Positions 55,682-60,740 of a DNA stretch of 64,000 bases are shown here, piece after piece. The notes below the pieces were generated by a model. The model was not told where the DNA came from, made no database searches, and worked only from the letters and a program-made list of their open reading frames with translations. The stretch is from Escherichia coli (GTDB lineage: Bacteria; Pseudomonadota; Gammaproteobacteria; Enterobacterales; Enterobacteriaceae): NCBI RefSeq assembly GCF_024223415.1, contig NZ_CP100500.1; one strand, given 5' to 3'. Within the stretch, counting starts at the first letter, position 1. Each line of letters starts with the position of its first letter. The translations under genes and the position numbers were made by a program.

Positions 55682-58192
55682 ATGAGCCATCACCACACGC
55701 ACCTGGCGTACCCGTGGAACGCCCCGCTGCCGGTTATTGATCCTGAGACATTCGGCAGAGCATTACCGCAGAAGCCAACCGCATTACAACGGGCAATCCG
55801 TGACTACCTCACCGAAGACATTCGCACTGAGGCCCGGCTGGATGAAGAAACCGTGGCCTTCCTGACAACCACGGACAAAGGTAAGCAAATTAATTCACAC
55901 CTTCACCGGGACGAAGAGCGGCAGATAAGGCTGGATAAGCTGGCACGACACAGACGCGAAAATCCGCCAACGGCGGTATCGGAGGCGATAGCCGAACTTC
56001 GCACCCTGCCCTCGTTTCTTGCCAGTGTGTTGATCCGTGATCTGGCACGACTGAACCGGAAACAGCAAAGTGCCCGCAGTGAAGGTGTAAAAAACAACAG
56101 CGCATACGTGGCCGATAATTTCGTTCGCCGTGGACTGCGTGCGCGCCTGAAACGTATTGAAAGGGTTAACGACCGCTTTGCAACGCCGGCATTCAAAACC
56201 ACCGTCGTGCGCCATCGCCTTGAAGAACTGCTCACACTGCCGCAACTCACCCGTGACGAAATCCAGCGCATCGCCACACTGACAGCCCAGGCATTCGCCG
56301 CAGAATTTGAACGCATATGTGATGAAGTTCTTGAACGGACAGGCAAGGATAATGACAGCCCGGTTATCTGGCTGCTGGCCTACCAGAAGGTGGCACGCAC
56401 AGCCTTAATTCTGGGCGTGGTCCCGCCATACTGGCCGGAACTCGAAATCAGGCACAACCGACGCACACCGCCGGACCCTGAACGGGTTCCGGGTGCGGTA
56501 CTGCGCATCACCTGCGCGACCTGGTGGAACAACCAGTTACGCCACGTCGCCGATCTCTGGCGGGAGGAGTTACTGCGCGCCGCCGGCAGAGTGTCACGTA
56601 AACAATCCCCCTATATCAGCCATGAGTCACTACTGGAGTTCCGCGAGAAGCGCCAGCGCACCCGTGACTTTCTCAAAAGCTGGGATATTGAAAACGAAGA
56701 CGGCGAGCGCCTGAGTCTGGAGGACGTGTACTGGGCTGGCCTGGGTAATCCACGCAACCGCCGCAATGAAATGATGGTCTGCGTCAGAGGGATGGAGATG
56801 GTGGCCGAATTACGGGCTGACGTCGCATTCTTCATCACAGTAACCACCCCTTCCCGCTTTCACAGCGTGAACGAGAACGGCAGCCTGAACCCGAAATACA
56901 ACGGTGCCACAGTACGAGATGCCAGTGATTATCTGGTTTACGACTTCTTCGCAGCCGTAAGAAAAAAAATAAAAAAAGAGGGGCTGGGCTGGTACGGCGT
57001 GCGAACCGCTGAGCCACACCATGACGGCACGCCACACTGGCATATGCTGGTATTCACTTCCCCGGAGAACGCAGAGCGCATCATCGAAATTATGCGCGAA
57101 GCAGCAATTAAATCAGATCGCCACGAACTGGGGGACGATATTTCACCGCGCTTTAAATGCGAGAAGATAGACCCGGAAAAAGGCACACCGGCAAGCTATA
57201 TCGCAACCTATATCGGTAAGAACCTGGACGCCAGCGCTTTCCACAACAATGATCCGAAAACCGGAAAACCTTACGTTGATGAGGAATCCGGGAAAACCAT
57301 GGCGGAAACCGTGGAGAACGCCATTGCCTGGGCAAGCCTTCACCGCATCCGTCAGTTCCAGTTTTTCGGCATTCCGCCCCGCCAGGTATGGCGTGAACTC
57401 CGCCGCCTTGCAAGCCAGATGGAGCGCAACCCGGCATCACCGAAGCACCTCGATCATGACGATATTGACGCCATTATGGCTGCCGCAGATGTGGGATGTT
57501 TTGCCACCTACATCATGAAACAGGGTGGTGTGCTCATTCCGCGCAACCAGTATCTGGTCCGCACCGCATACGAAACCGCAGACGAAGCCAACGACTACGG
57601 TGAATTCCCTCAACGTATCTACGGAATCTGCGCCCCGTCGCTCGGAGAGCGGTACACCATATGCACCCATCCGGACGAGTGGAAACTGGTTAAAAAAGAA
57701 ACAACACCAGACAACCGCACGGGCGAGGGTTTTGACCTTCAGGGCGACCCCGTCGCCCCTTGGACTCGTGGCAATAACTGTCCCCGGGATGAAAAAACAG
57801 ACAATCACGGACCAGAAAACAGGCAGGACCCCGGACGACTGACGCTTCCCGAAGAGAACCTGGAAAGCTGGCTGAATACGTTAAGCAGGGGCGATCGGAG
57901 AAAACTGCGTAATCAGATTAAAAATCAGCCGTCGGGCGCAAAAACCGGACAAAACGACACCACACCGGCATCTGACACCCCTGTAAGGGTGGGGATTGTC
58001 GTGCCTGCGGATACCGCGACGGACACGCAAATCGCCCGCGAACTTGATGCGCTGGGTGTGCAGTTGCCTGACGCGGCCATCATCTCCGTGCGTAACGGTG
58101 CCCGTGTGCGTCTGGATAACGGGGGAACAGCGTACTGGGATGAGTCAGCCCGTCACATCATCACAGAGCAGCCAGTGGAGGCGGGAGCATGA
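55682..58192 (+). CDS. A: P2 gpA-like rolling-circle replication initiator
   Basis: 836 aa; HUH-type motif TPHWHMLVF and paired tyrosines YIATYIGKN; larger than P2 A (~761 aa as I recall). Confidence 0.9.
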   Translation: MSHHHTHLAYPWNAPLPVIDPETFGRALPQKPTALQRAIRDYLTEDIRTEARLDEETVAFLTTTDKGKQINSHLHRDEERQIRLDKLARHRRENPPTAVSEAIAELRTLPSFLASVLIRDLARLNRKQQSARSEGVKNNSAYVADNFVRRGLRARLKRIERVNDRFATPAFKTTVVRHRLEELLTLPQLTRDEIQRIATLTAQAFAAEFERICDEVLERTGKDNDSPVIWLLAYQKVARTALILGVVPPYWPELEIRHNRRTPPDPERVPGAVLRITCATWWNNQLRHVADLWREELLRAAGRVSRKQSPYISHESLLEFREKRQRTRDFLKSWDIENEDGERLSLEDVYWAGLGNPRNRRNEMMVCVRGMEMVAELRADVAFFITVTTPSRFHSVNENGSLNPKYNGATVRDASDYLVYDFFAAVRKKIKKEGLGWYGVRTAEPHHDGTPHWHMLVFTSPENAERIIEIMREAAIKSDRHELGDDISPRFKCEKIDPEKGTPASYIATYIGKNLDASAFHNNDPKTGKPYVDEESGKTMAETVENAIAWASLHRIRQFQFFGIPPRQVWRELRRLASQMERNPASPKHLDHDDIDAIMAAADVGCFATYIMKQGGVLIPRNQYLVRTAYETADEANDYGEFPQRIYGICAPSLGERYTICTHPDEWKLVKKETTPDNRTGEGFDLQGDPVAPWTRGNNCPRDEKTDNHGPENRQDPGRLTLPEENLESWLNTLSRGDRRKLRNQIKNQPSGAKTGQNDTTPASDTPVRVGIVVPADTATDTQIARELDALGVQLPDAAIISVRNGARVRLDNGGTAYWDESARHIITEQPVEAGA

Positions 58193-58620
58193 CGCGATTT
58201 TGCTGCACCATGCAGCGCCCACAGTTTGAGGCCATCATGCGCCAGCGTATGCCGGTGCTGACACTGTTCAGGCCTGCCACAAGGCCACAACCGGGCGACG
58301 AGCTGGAAATCACGATAGTCAGCCCCGATCGCACCACGGAGACCACCATCGCCGACATACTCAACAGGCGGCCGGGCAGCGAGAGCCATAGCTGGACTGT
58401 CGTCATTCGTCCGCGCCGTTCGCCGGAGGAACCGGAGCCGTGCACGCCTGCCGGGAAAATCATGCAGAGATATCACGAAGAGCGGACACGCAGGCACAAC
58501 GGCGGACTGGCCAGAACACTGAACACAGTCAATCACAAGGCCGCGCTGGCGCGAATGGTCTTTTCACCACAACGCAATTCATTCGCCAGACCAGCACAGA
58601 ACGGGAGGAAACAACAGTGA
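58189..58620 (+). CDS. Hypothetical protein, first of five coupled ORFs after A; weak ASCH/PUA-like pattern
   Basis: 143 aa; start ATGA-overlaps A stop, RBS GGAGG; N-terminal pattern F..I......P..T.R.....GDELEI reminiscent of ASCH domains (weak). Confidence 0.55.
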   Translation: MTRFCCTMQRPQFEAIMRQRMPVLTLFRPATRPQPGDELEITIVSPDRTTETTIADILNRRPGSESHSWTVVIRPRRSPEEPEPCTPAGKIMQRYHEERTRRHNGGLARTLNTVNHKAALARMVFSPQRNSFARPAQNGRKQQ

Positions 58621-58811
58621 GCAGAATATTACTTTTTCTGCTGTTTTTCGCGCCATTCGCACAATCAGCCACGCCGAACTGCGTAGCGAAAAAGAGCAAC
58701 ACCGTTGTCATTGTCCAGTGTGATGACGGCACGGTAACAATCACCGACTCGAGCAAAGGAAGCGTCATTGTCTGCCGTAAAGAGAAACCCTGTCAGCGAA
58801 CCGAACTTTGA
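58617..58811 (+). CDS. Small secreted Cys-rich protein (signal peptide + ~42-aa mature part, 4 Cys)
   Basis: GTG start with GTGA overlap and RBS GGGAGG; (M)SRILLFLLFFAPFAQSA/TPNCVAKK...C..C; lies in frame inside longer ORF-track entry 58440..58811. Confidence 0.5.
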   Translation: MSRILLFLLFFAPFAQSATPNCVAKKSNTVVIVQCDDGTVTITDSSKGSVIVCRKEKPCQRTEL

Positions 58812-58822
58812 AGGAAAAATAT

Positions 58823-59781: not shown

Positions 59782-59783
59782 AA

Positions 59784-59810
59784 TGCACAATAGTGCACAA
59801 ATTTGCACAA
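59784..59810. repeat. Three direct TGCACAA repeats at exact 10-bp phasing
   Basis: aaTGCACAAtagTGCACAAattTGCACAAttttttt; candidate protein-binding array. Confidence 0.7.
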
Positions 59811-60026
59811 TTTTTTTGAACGACTTTTTGCCCTTCCGGCCCGTGTGGCGTCTGGATCCGTCGGGGATCCGTGCGTGCACGAAAAAAGGCCTTTTTCTGC
59901 GCGCAGGTGACGGGGGAACAGCCCGCGTTTCAGGGGGTAAATAGCATTCCCTGAACGATGTTGCAGCGACACAACAGAATGGCTGTATTTCTCACGCTGA
60001 GCGTAAAAAAGACGTAAAAGCTTGAT

Positions 60027-60740
60027 TTGATGGGGGTGAAAGATAAGGCCGTCAAAATCGCACTGAGGCAGCGAGAATATGTCGTCAGAGTTGCGGGGTT
60101 GCGTAAGCATCCGCCCGGCGATGATGGCTACAAGGTTGGAGATGTTGTGAAATTATCTGAAGGAATAACCAGCTTGCAGGAGAACCCGGGCAAAGTCAGA
60201 ATAGCGGCAGGCATCAACTCAAAAGAGGATAATGTCATGAGCCACTTTAATGATTTATGCCAGATCAATCGTGAAGCTGAAGAAAAACGCGCTGAGGCAG
60301 CTCAAATTTTGCGGGATGAAGCGGCAAGGCTGATTGATTTCTATGAAGAATGGCTGGGGCTTCCATCCATGTACTGGGAAGACGATGATGGCGACCTGCA
60401 CCGCTACGTGGAGACAGGCTTGCCATGTAAGACAGCGGCGGATTTTAGTCCTCTTTCAGTCCACAATATCGCATCTGCACCAGACAATATTTTCCGCATG
60501 GCCGTGCGAACCTGGGTTAAGTCATCTGACAGCAGCTACCCGGTAAGCGTGGTTATTGCACTTGAATTATATTCAGTAGATGCGGAACGGGTGTCTCTGA
60601 GAGTCCGGGTGGAAGACGATATTTCTGTTCGCGTATTTATCAATAAACCCAGCGAAGAAGCCTGGGGCGATGTTGTTATGCACATGAAAAAGCACATCGC
60701 TAATCACCTGAAAAAGCGAGCGCCATCAGCACTTCGTTAA
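60027..60740 (+). CDS. Hypothetical cargo protein between structured non-coding region and portal gene
   Basis: 237 aa from first ATG (no clear RBS); alternative start ~60237 (MSHFNDLCQ...) has RBS AAAGAGGA and gives ~167 aa; followed by hairpin CGGGGCATAAAtttTTTATGCCCCG. Confidence 0.6.
   Translation: MMGVKDKAVKIALRQREYVVRVAGLRKHPPGDDGYKVGDVVKLSEGITSLQENPGKVRIAAGINSKEDNVMSHFNDLCQINREAEEKRAEAAQILRDEAARLIDFYEEWLGLPSMYWEDDDGDLHRYVETGLPCKTAADFSPLSVHNIASAPDNIFRMAVRTWVKSSDSSYPVSVVIALELYSVDAERVSLRVRVEDDISVRVFINKPSEEAWGDVVMHMKKHIANHLKKRAPSALR

What the first reader, a model, noticed from the sequence alone, without database searches (positions are those of the whole stretch)
58189..60740. Unassigned cargo at the P2 old/tin position, between replication gene A and portal Q
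In P2 the A-to-Q interval carries the accessory genes old and tin, and this interval is known to vary between P2-like prophages and to carry anti-phage defence genes. Here it holds about 2.5 kb of different content: five tightly coupled small ORFs (143, 64, 104, 69 and 133 aa), a ~450-bp structured non-coding stretch, and a 167-237 aa ORF. I see no Old-like ATPase/nuclease, no Tin-like protein and no reverse transcriptase, and I could not place any of the six proteins in a family by eye. That makes this the best candidate in the window for an undescribed accessory or defence module.
Basis: partly seen in the sequence, partly recalled or inferred. Interest (0 to 1): 0.8.

Follow-up and report, generated by a model that had tools for sequence, protein, structure and literature searches.

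The report
Mosaic accessory genes around phage cos
The interval is a patchwork, not one new defence module: five small early-operon genes shared piecemeal with other phages, the phage's conserved DNA-packaging (cos) region, and one self-contained gene of unknown function that recurs at phage cargo sites.

Summary
None matches Pfam, NCBIfam, PADLOC or Rfam.

They are not one module:
- ORF1 always follows this allele of replication gene A. Its N-terminal domain has an ASCH fold, like P2 Orf91 at the same position.
- ORF3 is a P88-lineage gene.
- ORF4 and the first 47 residues of ORF5 are 93-97% identical to the variable part of the exo-xis early region of Stx phages and a P1-like phage.
- ORF2 and the C-terminal domain of ORF5 have relatives in virulent phages.
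- ORF1-5 are translationally coupled to A and end at an intrinsic terminator, so they are probably early lytic genes.

The "structured non-coding stretch" is most likely the cos packaging region. Its core is in 1148 of 5426 complete E. coli genomes; the whole block is in 21.

ORF6 (167 aa, phrog_5091) lies on a ~585-bp insertion with a predicted promoter of its own. Divergent alleles sit in the same cos-to-Q slot in other P2-like phages, and relatives occupy two other cargo slots. It is the only plausible stand-alone cargo, and its function is unknown.

This exact arrangement is already listed, uncharacterised, in Rousset et al. 2022. Interest is modest.

The parts
55682..58192 (+). Replication endonuclease gene A (836 aa). 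Context: first gene of the coupled string.
   Evidence: PGAP 'replication endonuclease'. 51% identical to P88 gpA over 742 aa. Pfam Phage_GPA in homologous loci.
58189..58620 (+). ORF1, 143 aa, pI 11.3. N-terminal ASCH/PUA-like barrel (residues 1-75) plus a long basic helix. Fixed companion of this A allele; fold-level and positional counterpart of P2 Orf91.
58617..58811 (+). ORF2, 64 aa. Predicted exported peptide: N-terminal hydrophobic leader, mature part ~44 aa with 4 Cys.
   Evidence: GTGA overlap with ORF1. phrog_20764 and phrog_11462. A 62%-identical homologue with the same leader and Cys pattern lies in L011 behind a non-homologous gene. dN/dS 0.22. The mature domain matches Erwinia jumbo-phage ORFs. 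The signal peptide was read by eye, not scored.
58823..59137 (+). ORF3, 104 aa. P88-lineage gene of unknown function.
   Evidence: 93% identical to P88 gp20 and 89% to the PhiR44_2 homologue; dN/dS 0.14-0.27. phrog_26213 and phrog_660. No Pfam or PDB match.
59139..59348 (+). ORF4, 69 aa, basic, 4 Cys. Very common gene of the variable part of the lambdoid exo-xis early region.
   Evidence: phrog_926, full length. 93-97% DNA identity to Stx phages, phiV10 and P1-like RCS47. In Stx2-86 it lies between exo and int, downstream of an ead/Ea22-like gene. In RCS47 it sits directly before a DUF551 gene. dN/dS 0.13.
59345..59746 (+). ORF5, 133 aa. Intact recombinant ORF: a 47-aa leader shared with DUF551-type proteins, joined to a different ~60-aa C-terminal domain.
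   Evidence: The N-terminus is nearly identical to Stx2-86 gp45 and RCS47 gp055, then diverges. The C-terminus matches phrog_13916 at 5-66 of 67 positions, E 5e-28. That domain also occurs in Yersinia, Erwinia, Pantoea and 200-kb Pseudomonas phages. PGAP calls only the first 45 codons and marks them a truncated pseudogene.
59754..59781 (+). Intrinsic terminator that ends the A-ORF5 string.
   Evidence: 9-bp G+C-rich stem followed by UUUAUUU; -15.2 kcal/mol, z -4.7, 0 of 200 shuffles fold as well. The same hairpin is present in P88.
59784..59935 (.). Conserved non-coding core, interpreted as the cos (packaging) site. Contains TGCACAA x3 at 10-nt spacing (59784-59810), a T-tract, the palindromes GGATCC..GGATCC, GTGCGTGCAC and CTGCGCGCAG, and GGTGACGGGGGAACAGCCC (59906-59924).
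   Evidence: 88-95% identical in P88, Chuche, 500465-2 and PhiR44_2. It is the only stretch still alignable in Salmonella, Edwardsiella and other E. coli lineages whose flanks have diverged. Present in 1148 of 5426 E. coli genomes and never annotated as coding. The linear record of virion-derived P88_4B11 begins and ends inside it, at window 59829/59830. The hotspot is described as cos-adjacent (PMC9122126).
59936..60160 (.). P88-lineage-specific conserved sequence to the right of the cos core. Holds a TGT-N12-ACA element (59959-59976) and a 42-codon ORF that is probably not a gene.
   Evidence: Conserved in P88-like phages but not in other lineages. TGT-N12-ACA also occurs in the P/O intergenic region. 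dN/dS of the 42-codon ORF is 0.78.
60161..60745 (+). ~585-bp insertion relative to P88, Chuche and 500465-2. It carries the ORF6 cassette: predicted sigma-70 promoter TTGCAG-17-CAGAAT (60174-60202), Shine-Dalgarno AGAGGA, and ORF6.
   Evidence: Insertion boundaries come from the alignment. The motif TTGC..-N17-.A.AAT lies 32-39 nt upstream of the ATG in six diverged lineages. By eye it is also present in PhiR44_2 (sequence).
60237..60740 (+). ORF6, 167 aa, pI 5.4, member of phrog_5091. Alpha+beta sandwich (long N- and C-terminal helices on a 7-strand sheet). Stand-alone cargo gene of unknown function.
60754..60782 (.). 13-bp perfect hairpin between the convergent ORF6 and Q genes. It is the backbone terminator-like hairpin downstream of Q.
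   Evidence: -27.6 kcal/mol on the + strand and -22.2 on the - strand; z -6.2 and -4.8. No U-tract on either side. Conserved in phages that lack ORF6.
60807..61862 (-). Portal gene Q. Context: right border of the interval.
   Evidence: PGAP 'phage portal protein'. Pfam Phage_portal in homologous loci.

Best explanation
The A-to-Q interval of this P88-like (Peduoviridae) E. coli prophage is a mosaic of three unrelated parts.

(1) The tail of the early replication operon. ORF1 is an ASCH-fold, very basic protein that always accompanies this A allele. It is the counterpart of P2 Orf91 and probably binds nucleic acid. ORF2 is a small protein predicted to be exported. ORF3, ORF4 and ORF5 are promiscuous small genes shared piecemeal with P88 and with the early exo-xis region of lambdoid and P1-like phages. 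These five are translated as one coupled string behind A, and transcription stops at an intrinsic terminator. I infer that they are made only after derepression, early in lytic growth. I further infer that they act individually as early accessory factors: modulating the lysis-lysogeny decision, taking over host functions, or countering host defences.

(2) The phage's cos packaging region, an essential backbone DNA element rather than cargo.

(3) One self-contained cassette, ORF6 of family phrog_5091, inserted between cos and the portal gene. It has a predicted sigma-70 promoter of its own, so it is probably expressed independently of the phage operons, including in the lysogen. It has no catalytic motifs. 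I infer that it works by binding a protein partner. Most likely it is a single-protein exclusion or conversion factor in the manner of P2 Tin; a counter-defence role is the alternative.

Shown here: the anatomy, the mosaic distribution, the folds, and purifying selection. Inferred: the timing of expression and every function.
For: Coupling and terminator. No + strand promoter-like site in 57800-61000.

ORF3 equals P88 gp20. ORF4 and the ORF5 leader lie in the exo-xis region of Stx2-86 and in RCS47. That region is transcribed earliest, from pL, and has a variable downstream gene set (PMC8614690). ORF2 and the ORF5 C-domain occur in virulent phages.

cos.

ORF6: insertion; conserved promoter motif; position next to Q with varying partners; a divergent allele in the same slot of an isolated phage; other cargo slots; dispensable, since an IS interrupts it in one strain.

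No defence-family match for any protein or for remote ORF6 relatives. Genome counts of 1148, 69, 31 and 21.
Against: No expression data exist, and promoter calls are consensus-based. The ORF6 promoter scores only 7 of 12 consensus positions. A weak internal promoter for ORF2-5 cannot be excluded.

The cos cleavage site is not mapped. Similarity of 59906-59924 to the P2 cohesive end (13 of 19) is at chance level: 19 sites in the window score at least 13 of 19. The boundary of the P88_4B11 record may be an assembly choice.

ORF1 has no sequence-level match to ASCH or DUF3850. The hotspot is experimentally rich in defence genes, and unknown genes there often prove defensive (PMC9122126; bioRxiv 10.64898/2026.02.27.708500). 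So a defensive role for some of these genes remains possible.
Confidence: 0.62

Rival explanations
1. One reading: the six genes, or ORF1-5 as an operon, form one undescribed multi-gene anti-phage defence system carried as hotspot cargo and expressed from the prophage.
For: The location is the validated gpA-gpQ defence hotspot, where more than a third of cloned systems were active (PMC9122126). 19% of P2-like elements have only unknown genes at this locus, and 15-32% of such P2 proteins are predicted to be antiviral (bioRxiv 2026.02.27.708500). The five ORFs are tightly coupled.
Against: The genes do not co-occur outside 21 near-identical prophages, and each has its own distribution. There is no ATPase, nuclease, sensor or other PADLOC, Pfam or NCBIfam domain. 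There is no promoter-like site, and the genes read on from the early gene A. ORF2 and the ORF5 C-domain occur in virulent phages. ORF1 is backbone-linked.
Confidence: 0.08
2. ORF1-5, or some of them, are counter-defence genes: small early proteins that inhibit host or rival immune systems during lytic growth, clustered at the end of the early operon.
For: They sit in an early operon and are small, non-enzymatic proteins. Their modules are shuffled between unrelated temperate phages. Relatives occur in virulent phages. They lie near gam, kil and cIII-type host-takeover genes in lambdoid phages. This is a more specific version of the best explanation, not a contradiction of it.
Against: No anti-defence library was available to test against. 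The characterised exo-xis genes affect the lysis-lysogeny decision rather than immunity (PMC7093339, PMC8614690). ORF2 is predicted to be exported, which is atypical for known inhibitors of cytoplasmic defence systems.
Confidence: 0.2
3. ORF6 is not a lysogen-expressed conversion gene. It is a late lytic accessory, for example a packaging or virion-associated factor, read from phage late transcription.
For: Relatives lie directly after ogr with a 12-nt gap, and between antiterminator Q and the holin in a lambdoid prophage, that is, inside the late transcript. ORF6 abuts cos and the portal and terminase genes. A TGT-N12-ACA late-promoter-type element lies 278 nt upstream of its start codon in the window.
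Against: The TGT-N12-ACA element is absent upstream of ORF6 in the other lineages. It belongs to the P88 backbone, which has it without ORF6. A sigma-70-type motif travels with the gene instead. The gene is absent from most P88-like phages (31 versus 1148 genomes) and is IS-disrupted in one strain, so it is not needed for virion production.
Confidence: 0.15

Closest known systems
P2 orf91 (DUF3850/ASCH), the gene that overlaps the stop codon of P2 gene A
   Same: ORF1 is likewise 4-bp-coupled to A, small, and has an ASCH/PUA-like barrel. It is linked to the replication gene rather than being swappable cargo.
   Different: There is no detectable sequence similarity to Orf91 (hhalign probability 0.2%) and no Pfam ASCH or DUF3850 hit. 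ORF1 also carries a ~65-residue basic, helical C-terminal extension.
P2 tin/old locus and the gpA-gpQ cos-proximal hotspot (Rousset et al. 2022, PMC9122126)
   Same: Same genomic interval. The exact arrangement is listed in that paper's supplementary table. ORF6 behaves like swappable cargo with its own promoter, as old and tin have.
   Different: P2 old and tin lie on the A side of cos and are transcribed leftward; ORF6 lies on the Q side of cos. No Old, Tin or other known defence domain is present. ORF1-5 are operon extensions, not autonomous cassettes.
[quoted passage not shown]
   Same: ORF4 and the first 47 residues of ORF5 are 93-97% identical at DNA level to genes in that region. In both settings the genes sit in an early lytic operon.
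   Different: They are not among the characterised exo-xis genes (orf60a, orf61, orf63, orf73, ea22). There is no PDB match to the solved Ea22, Orf63 or Ea8.5 structures and no Pfam Ead_Ea22 or DUF551 hit. Here they follow a rolling-circle replication gene in a P2-type phage.
Morons of temperate phages (autonomous promoter-gene-terminator insertions, as described for HK97 and lambda; from my own knowledge)
   Same: ORF6 is a presence/absence insertion between backbone elements with a gene-associated promoter motif. Relatives occupy the classic Q-to-holin moron slot.
   Different: Promoter and terminator are predicted only. The downstream hairpin belongs to the backbone and lacks a U-tract.
P2/P4 cos site (19-nt cohesive ends within a ~55-bp conserved region; PMC3931495)
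   Same: A conserved non-coding element between the A-side genes and Q (P2 cosL lies 186 bp from the end of Q). Phased short repeats lie on the A side: P2 has TGCAT x3 and the window has TGCACAA x3.
   Different: The sequence is not the P2 cohesive end (13 of 19, at chance level). The core is ~150 bp. The cleavage positions are unknown.

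Membership tests
Known anti-phage defence systems (PADLOC-DB v2, including Old, Tin-type, retron/RT) | At least one protein matches a defence-system profile | tested here: not met
   Five proteins have no hit. ORF3 has one chance-level hit (PDC-M28C, E 0.01, 12.7 bits). Seven remote ORF6 relatives also have none. No ATPase, TOPRIM or RT domains in Pfam or NCBIfam.
Multi-gene system (any kind) | The component genes co-occur across diverged genomes | tested here: not met
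   The whole block is found only in 21 near-identical prophages. ORF1, ORF3, ORF4/5 and ORF6 each occur with different neighbours.
ASCH / PUA-like superfamily (ORF1) | ASCH beta-barrel fold | tested here: met
ASCH / PUA-like superfamily (ORF1) | Sequence-profile membership (Pfam ASCH or DUF3850) and the conserved N-terminal Gly-Lys-Glu-Arg-type motif | tested here: not met
   No Pfam hit even at E<=10. hhalign to P2 Orf91 gives probability 0.2%. By eye, the motif is not recognisable in FEAIMRQRMPVLTLFR.
Ead/Ea22-like (PF13935) and DUF551 (ORF3, ORF5) | Match to the Pfam domain | tested here: not met
   No Pfam hits. Only the 47-aa leader of ORF5 is shared with DUF551 proteins. Identity to Ead_Ea22-positive proteins at the same position is 18-19%.
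186-type tum/orf97 or derepression regulators | Match to the TumE or Derepression families within the interval | tested here: not met
   No Pfam hits for ORF1, ORF3, ORF4, ORF5 or ORF6; ORF2 was not scanned against Pfam. The 'derepression protein' of this prophage lies upstream of A at 54967-55194.
P2-type cos site | Conserved non-coding element between the A-side genes and Q, kept across lineages whose flanks diverge | tested here: met
   (1148 of 5426 genomes, never coding).
P2-type cos site | The 19-nt cohesive-end sequence GGCGAGGCGGGGAAAGCAC, or a near match | tested here: not met
   The best match is 13 of 19 at 59906-59924. Nineteen sites in the window score at least 13 of 19.
P2-type cos site | Physical ends of virion DNA map to the element | tested here: inconclusive
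   The linear record of P88_4B11 starts and ends inside the core, at window 59829/59830. How its ends were set is not stated.
Moron / autonomous cargo cassette (ORF6) | Presence/absence insertion in an otherwise conserved backbone | tested here: met
   A ~585-bp insertion relative to P88, Chuche and 500465-2. Present in 31 genomes against 1148 with the cos core.
Moron / autonomous cargo cassette (ORF6) | Own promoter, with expression from the prophage | tested here: inconclusive
   The motif TTGC..-N17-.A.AAT is positionally conserved in six lineages, but it scores only 7 of 12 consensus positions. Expression cannot be tested with these tools.
phrog_5091 (ORF6) | Full-length profile match | tested here: met
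   E 3.5e-52 over 163 of 164 profile positions. Remote relatives and the PhiR44_2 allele hit the same family.

The most novel reading that the evidence does not exclude
phrog_5091 (ORF6) may be an uncharacterised family of single-protein, prophage-expressed factors. Each would act by binding one partner protein, either excluding a competing phage (Tin-like) or blocking a host defence. In favour: alleles only ~28-37% identical occupy the same cos-to-Q slot in closely related P88-like backbones; the family also appears in two other cargo slots (after ogr, and between Q and the holin); and it has no close match among solved structures. Fast allelic turnover at a fixed slot would fit an arms-race gene.
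Probability: 0.25. Interest if true: 0.55.

Novelty: new member of a known kind. Interest (0 to 1): 0.3.

Why it matters
The result shows how a 'variable interval at a defence hotspot' can mislead. Here roughly a fifth of the interval is the essential cos element. One gene belongs to the replication module, and three are ubiquitous early-operon genes borrowed from lambdoid phages. That leaves one realistic candidate, ORF6 (phrog_5091).

ORF6 is a compact target for experiment: a single 167-aa gene with a predicted promoter of its own, natural alleles in isolated phages such as PhiR44_2, and a natural IS knock-out.

If ORF6 proved to be an exclusion or counter-defence factor, it would add a small non-enzymatic family to the P2 hotspot repertoire. 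It would also show that the Q side of cos, as well as the A side, takes cargo. The ORF1 result further suggests that an ASCH-fold partner of gpA is a conserved but unexplained feature of P2-type replication modules.

Tried and rejected
- Rfam on 57500-61500 at E<=1 gave nothing. RNA folding of the cos core is no better than shuffles (z -1.48). 'Structured RNA' is rejected.
- Pfam on five proteins, and NCBIfam and PADLOC on all six, gave no meaningful hits.
- PDB sequence searches for ORF1, ORF3, ORF4, ORF5 and ORF6 gave nothing below E 0.1.
- hhalign of the ORF1 family against P2 Orf91 was negative.
- tblastn of ORF1 and ORF6 against 50,697 phage records gave no match. Only a remote family member (P0034) reached isolated phages.
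- The HMMER search of 1.8 billion representatives found only 31 relatives.
- I first thought that similarity of 59906-59924 to the P2 cohesive end marked cosN. I rejected it as evidence because 13 of 19 is at chance level.
- I considered an Ogr-type late promoter (TGT-N12-ACA, 59959-59976) as the driver of ORF6. I rejected it because it is absent upstream of ORF6 in the other lineages.
- A LexA-box scan found nothing convincing in the interval.
- The 237-aa reading of ORF6 is rejected on homologue lengths and dN/dS 0.78 for the extension.
- A literature search for the WP accessions in main texts gave no paper. They appear only in a supplementary table.

Full report
CONTEXT. Window 52-64 kb belongs to a P2-family prophage of E. 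coli, on the + strand. The 2.9 kb around the finding is 100% identical in about 20 complete E. coli genomes. PGAP annotates the neighbours as replication endonuclease (A, 55682-58192), phage portal protein (Q, 60807-61862, - strand) and large terminase. The closest isolated phages are P88-like Peduoviridae of the genera Xuanwuvirus and Gemsvirus. The A protein itself is only 51% identical to that of P88. So this is the A-to-Q interval, the cos-proximal hotspot of P2-like phages described by Rousset et al. 2022 (PMC9122126).

OBSERVATION.
- Five are translationally coupled to A and to each other. A/ORF1 and ORF4/ORF5 are ATGA overlaps, ORF1/ORF2 is a GTGA overlap, and the other gaps are 11 nt and 1 nt. 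Each has a Shine-Dalgarno sequence.
- dN/dS against diverged homologues is 0.13-0.42 for ORF1, ORF2, ORF3, ORF4 and ORF6, so these are real genes. ORF5 was not measured this way, but its two halves each match phage protein families.
- ORF6 is the 167-aa form. Homologues are 164-169 aa, and the upstream 42 codons evolve almost neutrally (dN/dS 0.78).
- None of the proteins tested hits Pfam, NCBIfam or PADLOC. All six fall in PHROG families of unknown function.

THE GENES ARE NOT ONE MODULE.

ORF1.
- Every homologue examined overlaps by 4 bp the stop codon of an ~840-aa A gene. What follows differs: an Ead_Ea22 gene, a MarR-like gene with a TumE pair, or nothing.
- The barrel is followed by a long basic helix; the whole protein has pI 11.3.
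- P2 Orf91, also 4-bp-coupled to A, is a DUF3850 (ASCH-like) protein. Rousset's table labels the first hotspot gene of many loci 'DUF3850/ASCH'.
- Sequence-level similarity is absent.
- I conclude that ORF1 is the fold-level and positional counterpart of Orf91. It is part of the replication module, not cargo.

ORF2.
- It has an N-terminal hydrophobic leader and a ~44-aa mature part with four cysteines.
- A 62%-identical homologue with the same features lies behind a non-homologous gene in another prophage.
- The mature domain matches ORFs of virulent Erwinia jumbo phages.

ORF3. It is 93% identical to P88 gp20 and 89% identical to its PhiR44_2 homologue.

ORF4 and ORF5.
- ORF4 and the first 47 residues of ORF5 are 93-97% identical at DNA level to a segment found in about 200 phage records and roughly 2000 E. 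coli genomes.
- In Stx2-converting phage 86 that segment lies between exo and int, just after an ead/Ea22-like gene. In the P1-like phage RCS47 it precedes a DUF551 gene.
- This is the variable part of the exo-xis region, which is transcribed earliest, from pL (PMC8614690).
- ORF5 then switches to a different C-terminal domain (phrog_13916, E 5e-28). That domain also occurs in Yersinia, Erwinia, Pantoea and 200-kb Pseudomonas phages.
- PGAP's call of ORF5 as a truncated pseudogene reflects this recombination. The frame is intact.

End of the string. It stops at a good intrinsic terminator at 59754-59781 (z -4.7). No + strand promoter-like site was found in 57800-61000.

THE NON-CODING STRETCH IS THE COS REGION.
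- Positions 59780-60160 are 88-95% identical in P88, Chuche, 500465-2 and PhiR44_2. In most of these phages the stretch runs straight into the hairpin downstream of Q.
- Across more distant ORF6-bearing prophages (Salmonella, Edwardsiella, other E. coli) only ~150 bp (59784-59935) remain alignable. That core holds three TGCACAA repeats at 10-nt spacing, a T-tract, three short palindromes and GGTGACGGGGGAACAGCCC.
- The core occurs in 1148 of 5426 complete E. coli genomes and is never annotated as coding.
- The linear record of the virion-derived phage P88_4B11 begins and ends inside it.
- There is no Rfam match and no unusual RNA folding.
- A P2-type terminase and portal need a cos site between the A side and Q, and no canonical P2 cohesive-end sequence exists in the window. 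This element is therefore the best candidate by position, conservation and elimination. The cleavage site itself is not determined.

ORF6 IS A SEPARATE CASSETTE.
- Relative to P88, Chuche and 500465-2, a ~585-bp segment (60161-60745) is inserted between the cos-proximal backbone and the Q hairpin.
- It carries TTGCAG-17-CAGAAT at 60174-60202, a Shine-Dalgarno sequence and ORF6.
- The same TTGC..-N17-.A.AAT arrangement lies 32-39 nt upstream of the start codon in six diverged lineages whose upstream sequences are otherwise unalignable. By eye it is also present in PhiR44_2.
- Close homologues (54-87% identity) always sit next to the portal gene. The cargo on the other side of cos varies: a HigBA-like pair, SSB with Ead_Ea22, or a TumE pair.
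- The isolated phages PhiR44_2, vB_EcoM-705R2 and vB_EcoM-569R5 carry a divergent allele of the same PHROG in the same slot (phrog_5091, E 1.4e-67; hhalign probability 96%).
- Remoter members lie directly after ogr at the att-proximal end of a P2-like prophage, and between antiterminator Q and the holin in a lambdoid prophage. Both are classic cargo positions.
- The family is small: 31 representatives among 1.8 billion proteins. It is confined to Proteobacteria.
- In strain NRZ14408 the gene is split by ISEc12, so it is dispensable to the lysogen.

MECHANISM.
- Shown: the anatomy, the distributions, the folds and purifying selection.
- Inferred: ORF1-5 are made with A after derepression and act singly as early accessory proteins. 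ORF1 probably binds nucleic acid alongside gpA.
- Inferred: ORF6 is expressed from its own promoter, probably also in the lysogen. Lacking catalytic motifs, it would act by binding a partner, most plausibly as a Tin-like exclusion or conversion factor. A counter-defence role or a late-lytic role are the alternatives.
- The six-gene defence-system reading is unlikely (about 0.08). Its main support is the location.

NOVELTY.
- The arrangement is already listed as 'hypothetical x6' in Rousset's supplementary table, including NZ_CP033635, which is 100% identical to the window.
- What is new here is the dissection: an ASCH-fold companion of gpA, borrowed exo-xis genes, the cos assignment, and phrog_5091 as a recurrent promoter-bearing cassette on the Q side of cos.
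- This is a new member of a known kind, namely accessory cargo at the P2 cos-proximal hotspot. Interest is about 0.3.

Noticed in passing
window 54710-54785 and 54821-54908 (+): Rfam gathering-level matches to isrK (61.9 bits) and to C4 antisense RNA (79.3 bits). They lie side by side in the 320-bp gap just upstream of the 'derepression protein' gene (54967-55194). This looks like a P1/P7-type c4-ant immunity arrangement inside a P2-family prophage.
   Followed up: partly
window 49084-49218 (+): Full-length Rfam match to the enterobacterial sRNA STnc130 (125.8 bits), outside the finding.
   Followed up: no
window 58100-58131 versus 59839-59857 and 59910-59922: The last 90 nt of gene A contain a compressed copy of two pieces of the cos core. 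GCCCGTGTG(G)CGTCTGGAT matches 18 of 19, and ACGGGGGAACAGC is exact over 13 nt. The two pieces are contiguous in A but 52 nt apart in cos. The resemblance is weaker in other alleles of this A lineage. It is unexplained; it could be a recombination scar or chance.
   Followed up: partly
window 59959-59976 and 63679-63696: TGT-N12-ACA elements with extended dyads, the consensus of Ogr-dependent P2 late promoters (PMC3931495). One lies in the P/O intergenic region as expected. The other lies 50 nt right of the cos core, points toward Q and is conserved in P88-like phages. It precedes a 42-codon ORF that evolves almost neutrally. Whether a late transcript starts next to cos is unknown.
   Followed up: partly
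window 59784-59810: Three TGCACAA repeats at exactly 10-nt spacing, invariant in E. coli and Salmonella lineages. P2 has TGCAT x3 at a comparable position on the A side of its cos. They may be terminase or host-factor binding sites.
   Followed up: partly
L031 (NZ_CP158426.1 3381830-3384132), equivalent to window ~60333-60339: In strains NRZ14408 and LT599825 the ORF6 sequence is split at this point by about 2.6 kb of intervening DNA. In NRZ14408 this is an IS21-family ISEc12, with an apparent 7-bp overlap of the two flanks. This is a natural knock-out.
   Followed up: yes
window 59345-59479 (L001 7346-7480): PGAP annotates only the first 45 codons of ORF5 as a C-terminally truncated pseudogene. 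The frame in fact continues to 133 aa, with a second domain that matches a PHROG.
   Followed up: yes
window 55682-58192 versus P88 (L002 1434-4256): The prophage is itself a hybrid. The cos region and ORF3 are about 87-93% identical to P88, but gpA is only 51% identical and 104 aa shorter, with an unrelated C-terminal ~90 residues.
   Followed up: partly
L005 6675-7199 (phage PhiR44_2): The divergent phrog_5091 allele is inserted on the Q side of the backbone hairpin, about 70 bp from the insertion point used in the window. The same slot has therefore been filled at least twice, independently.
   Followed up: partly
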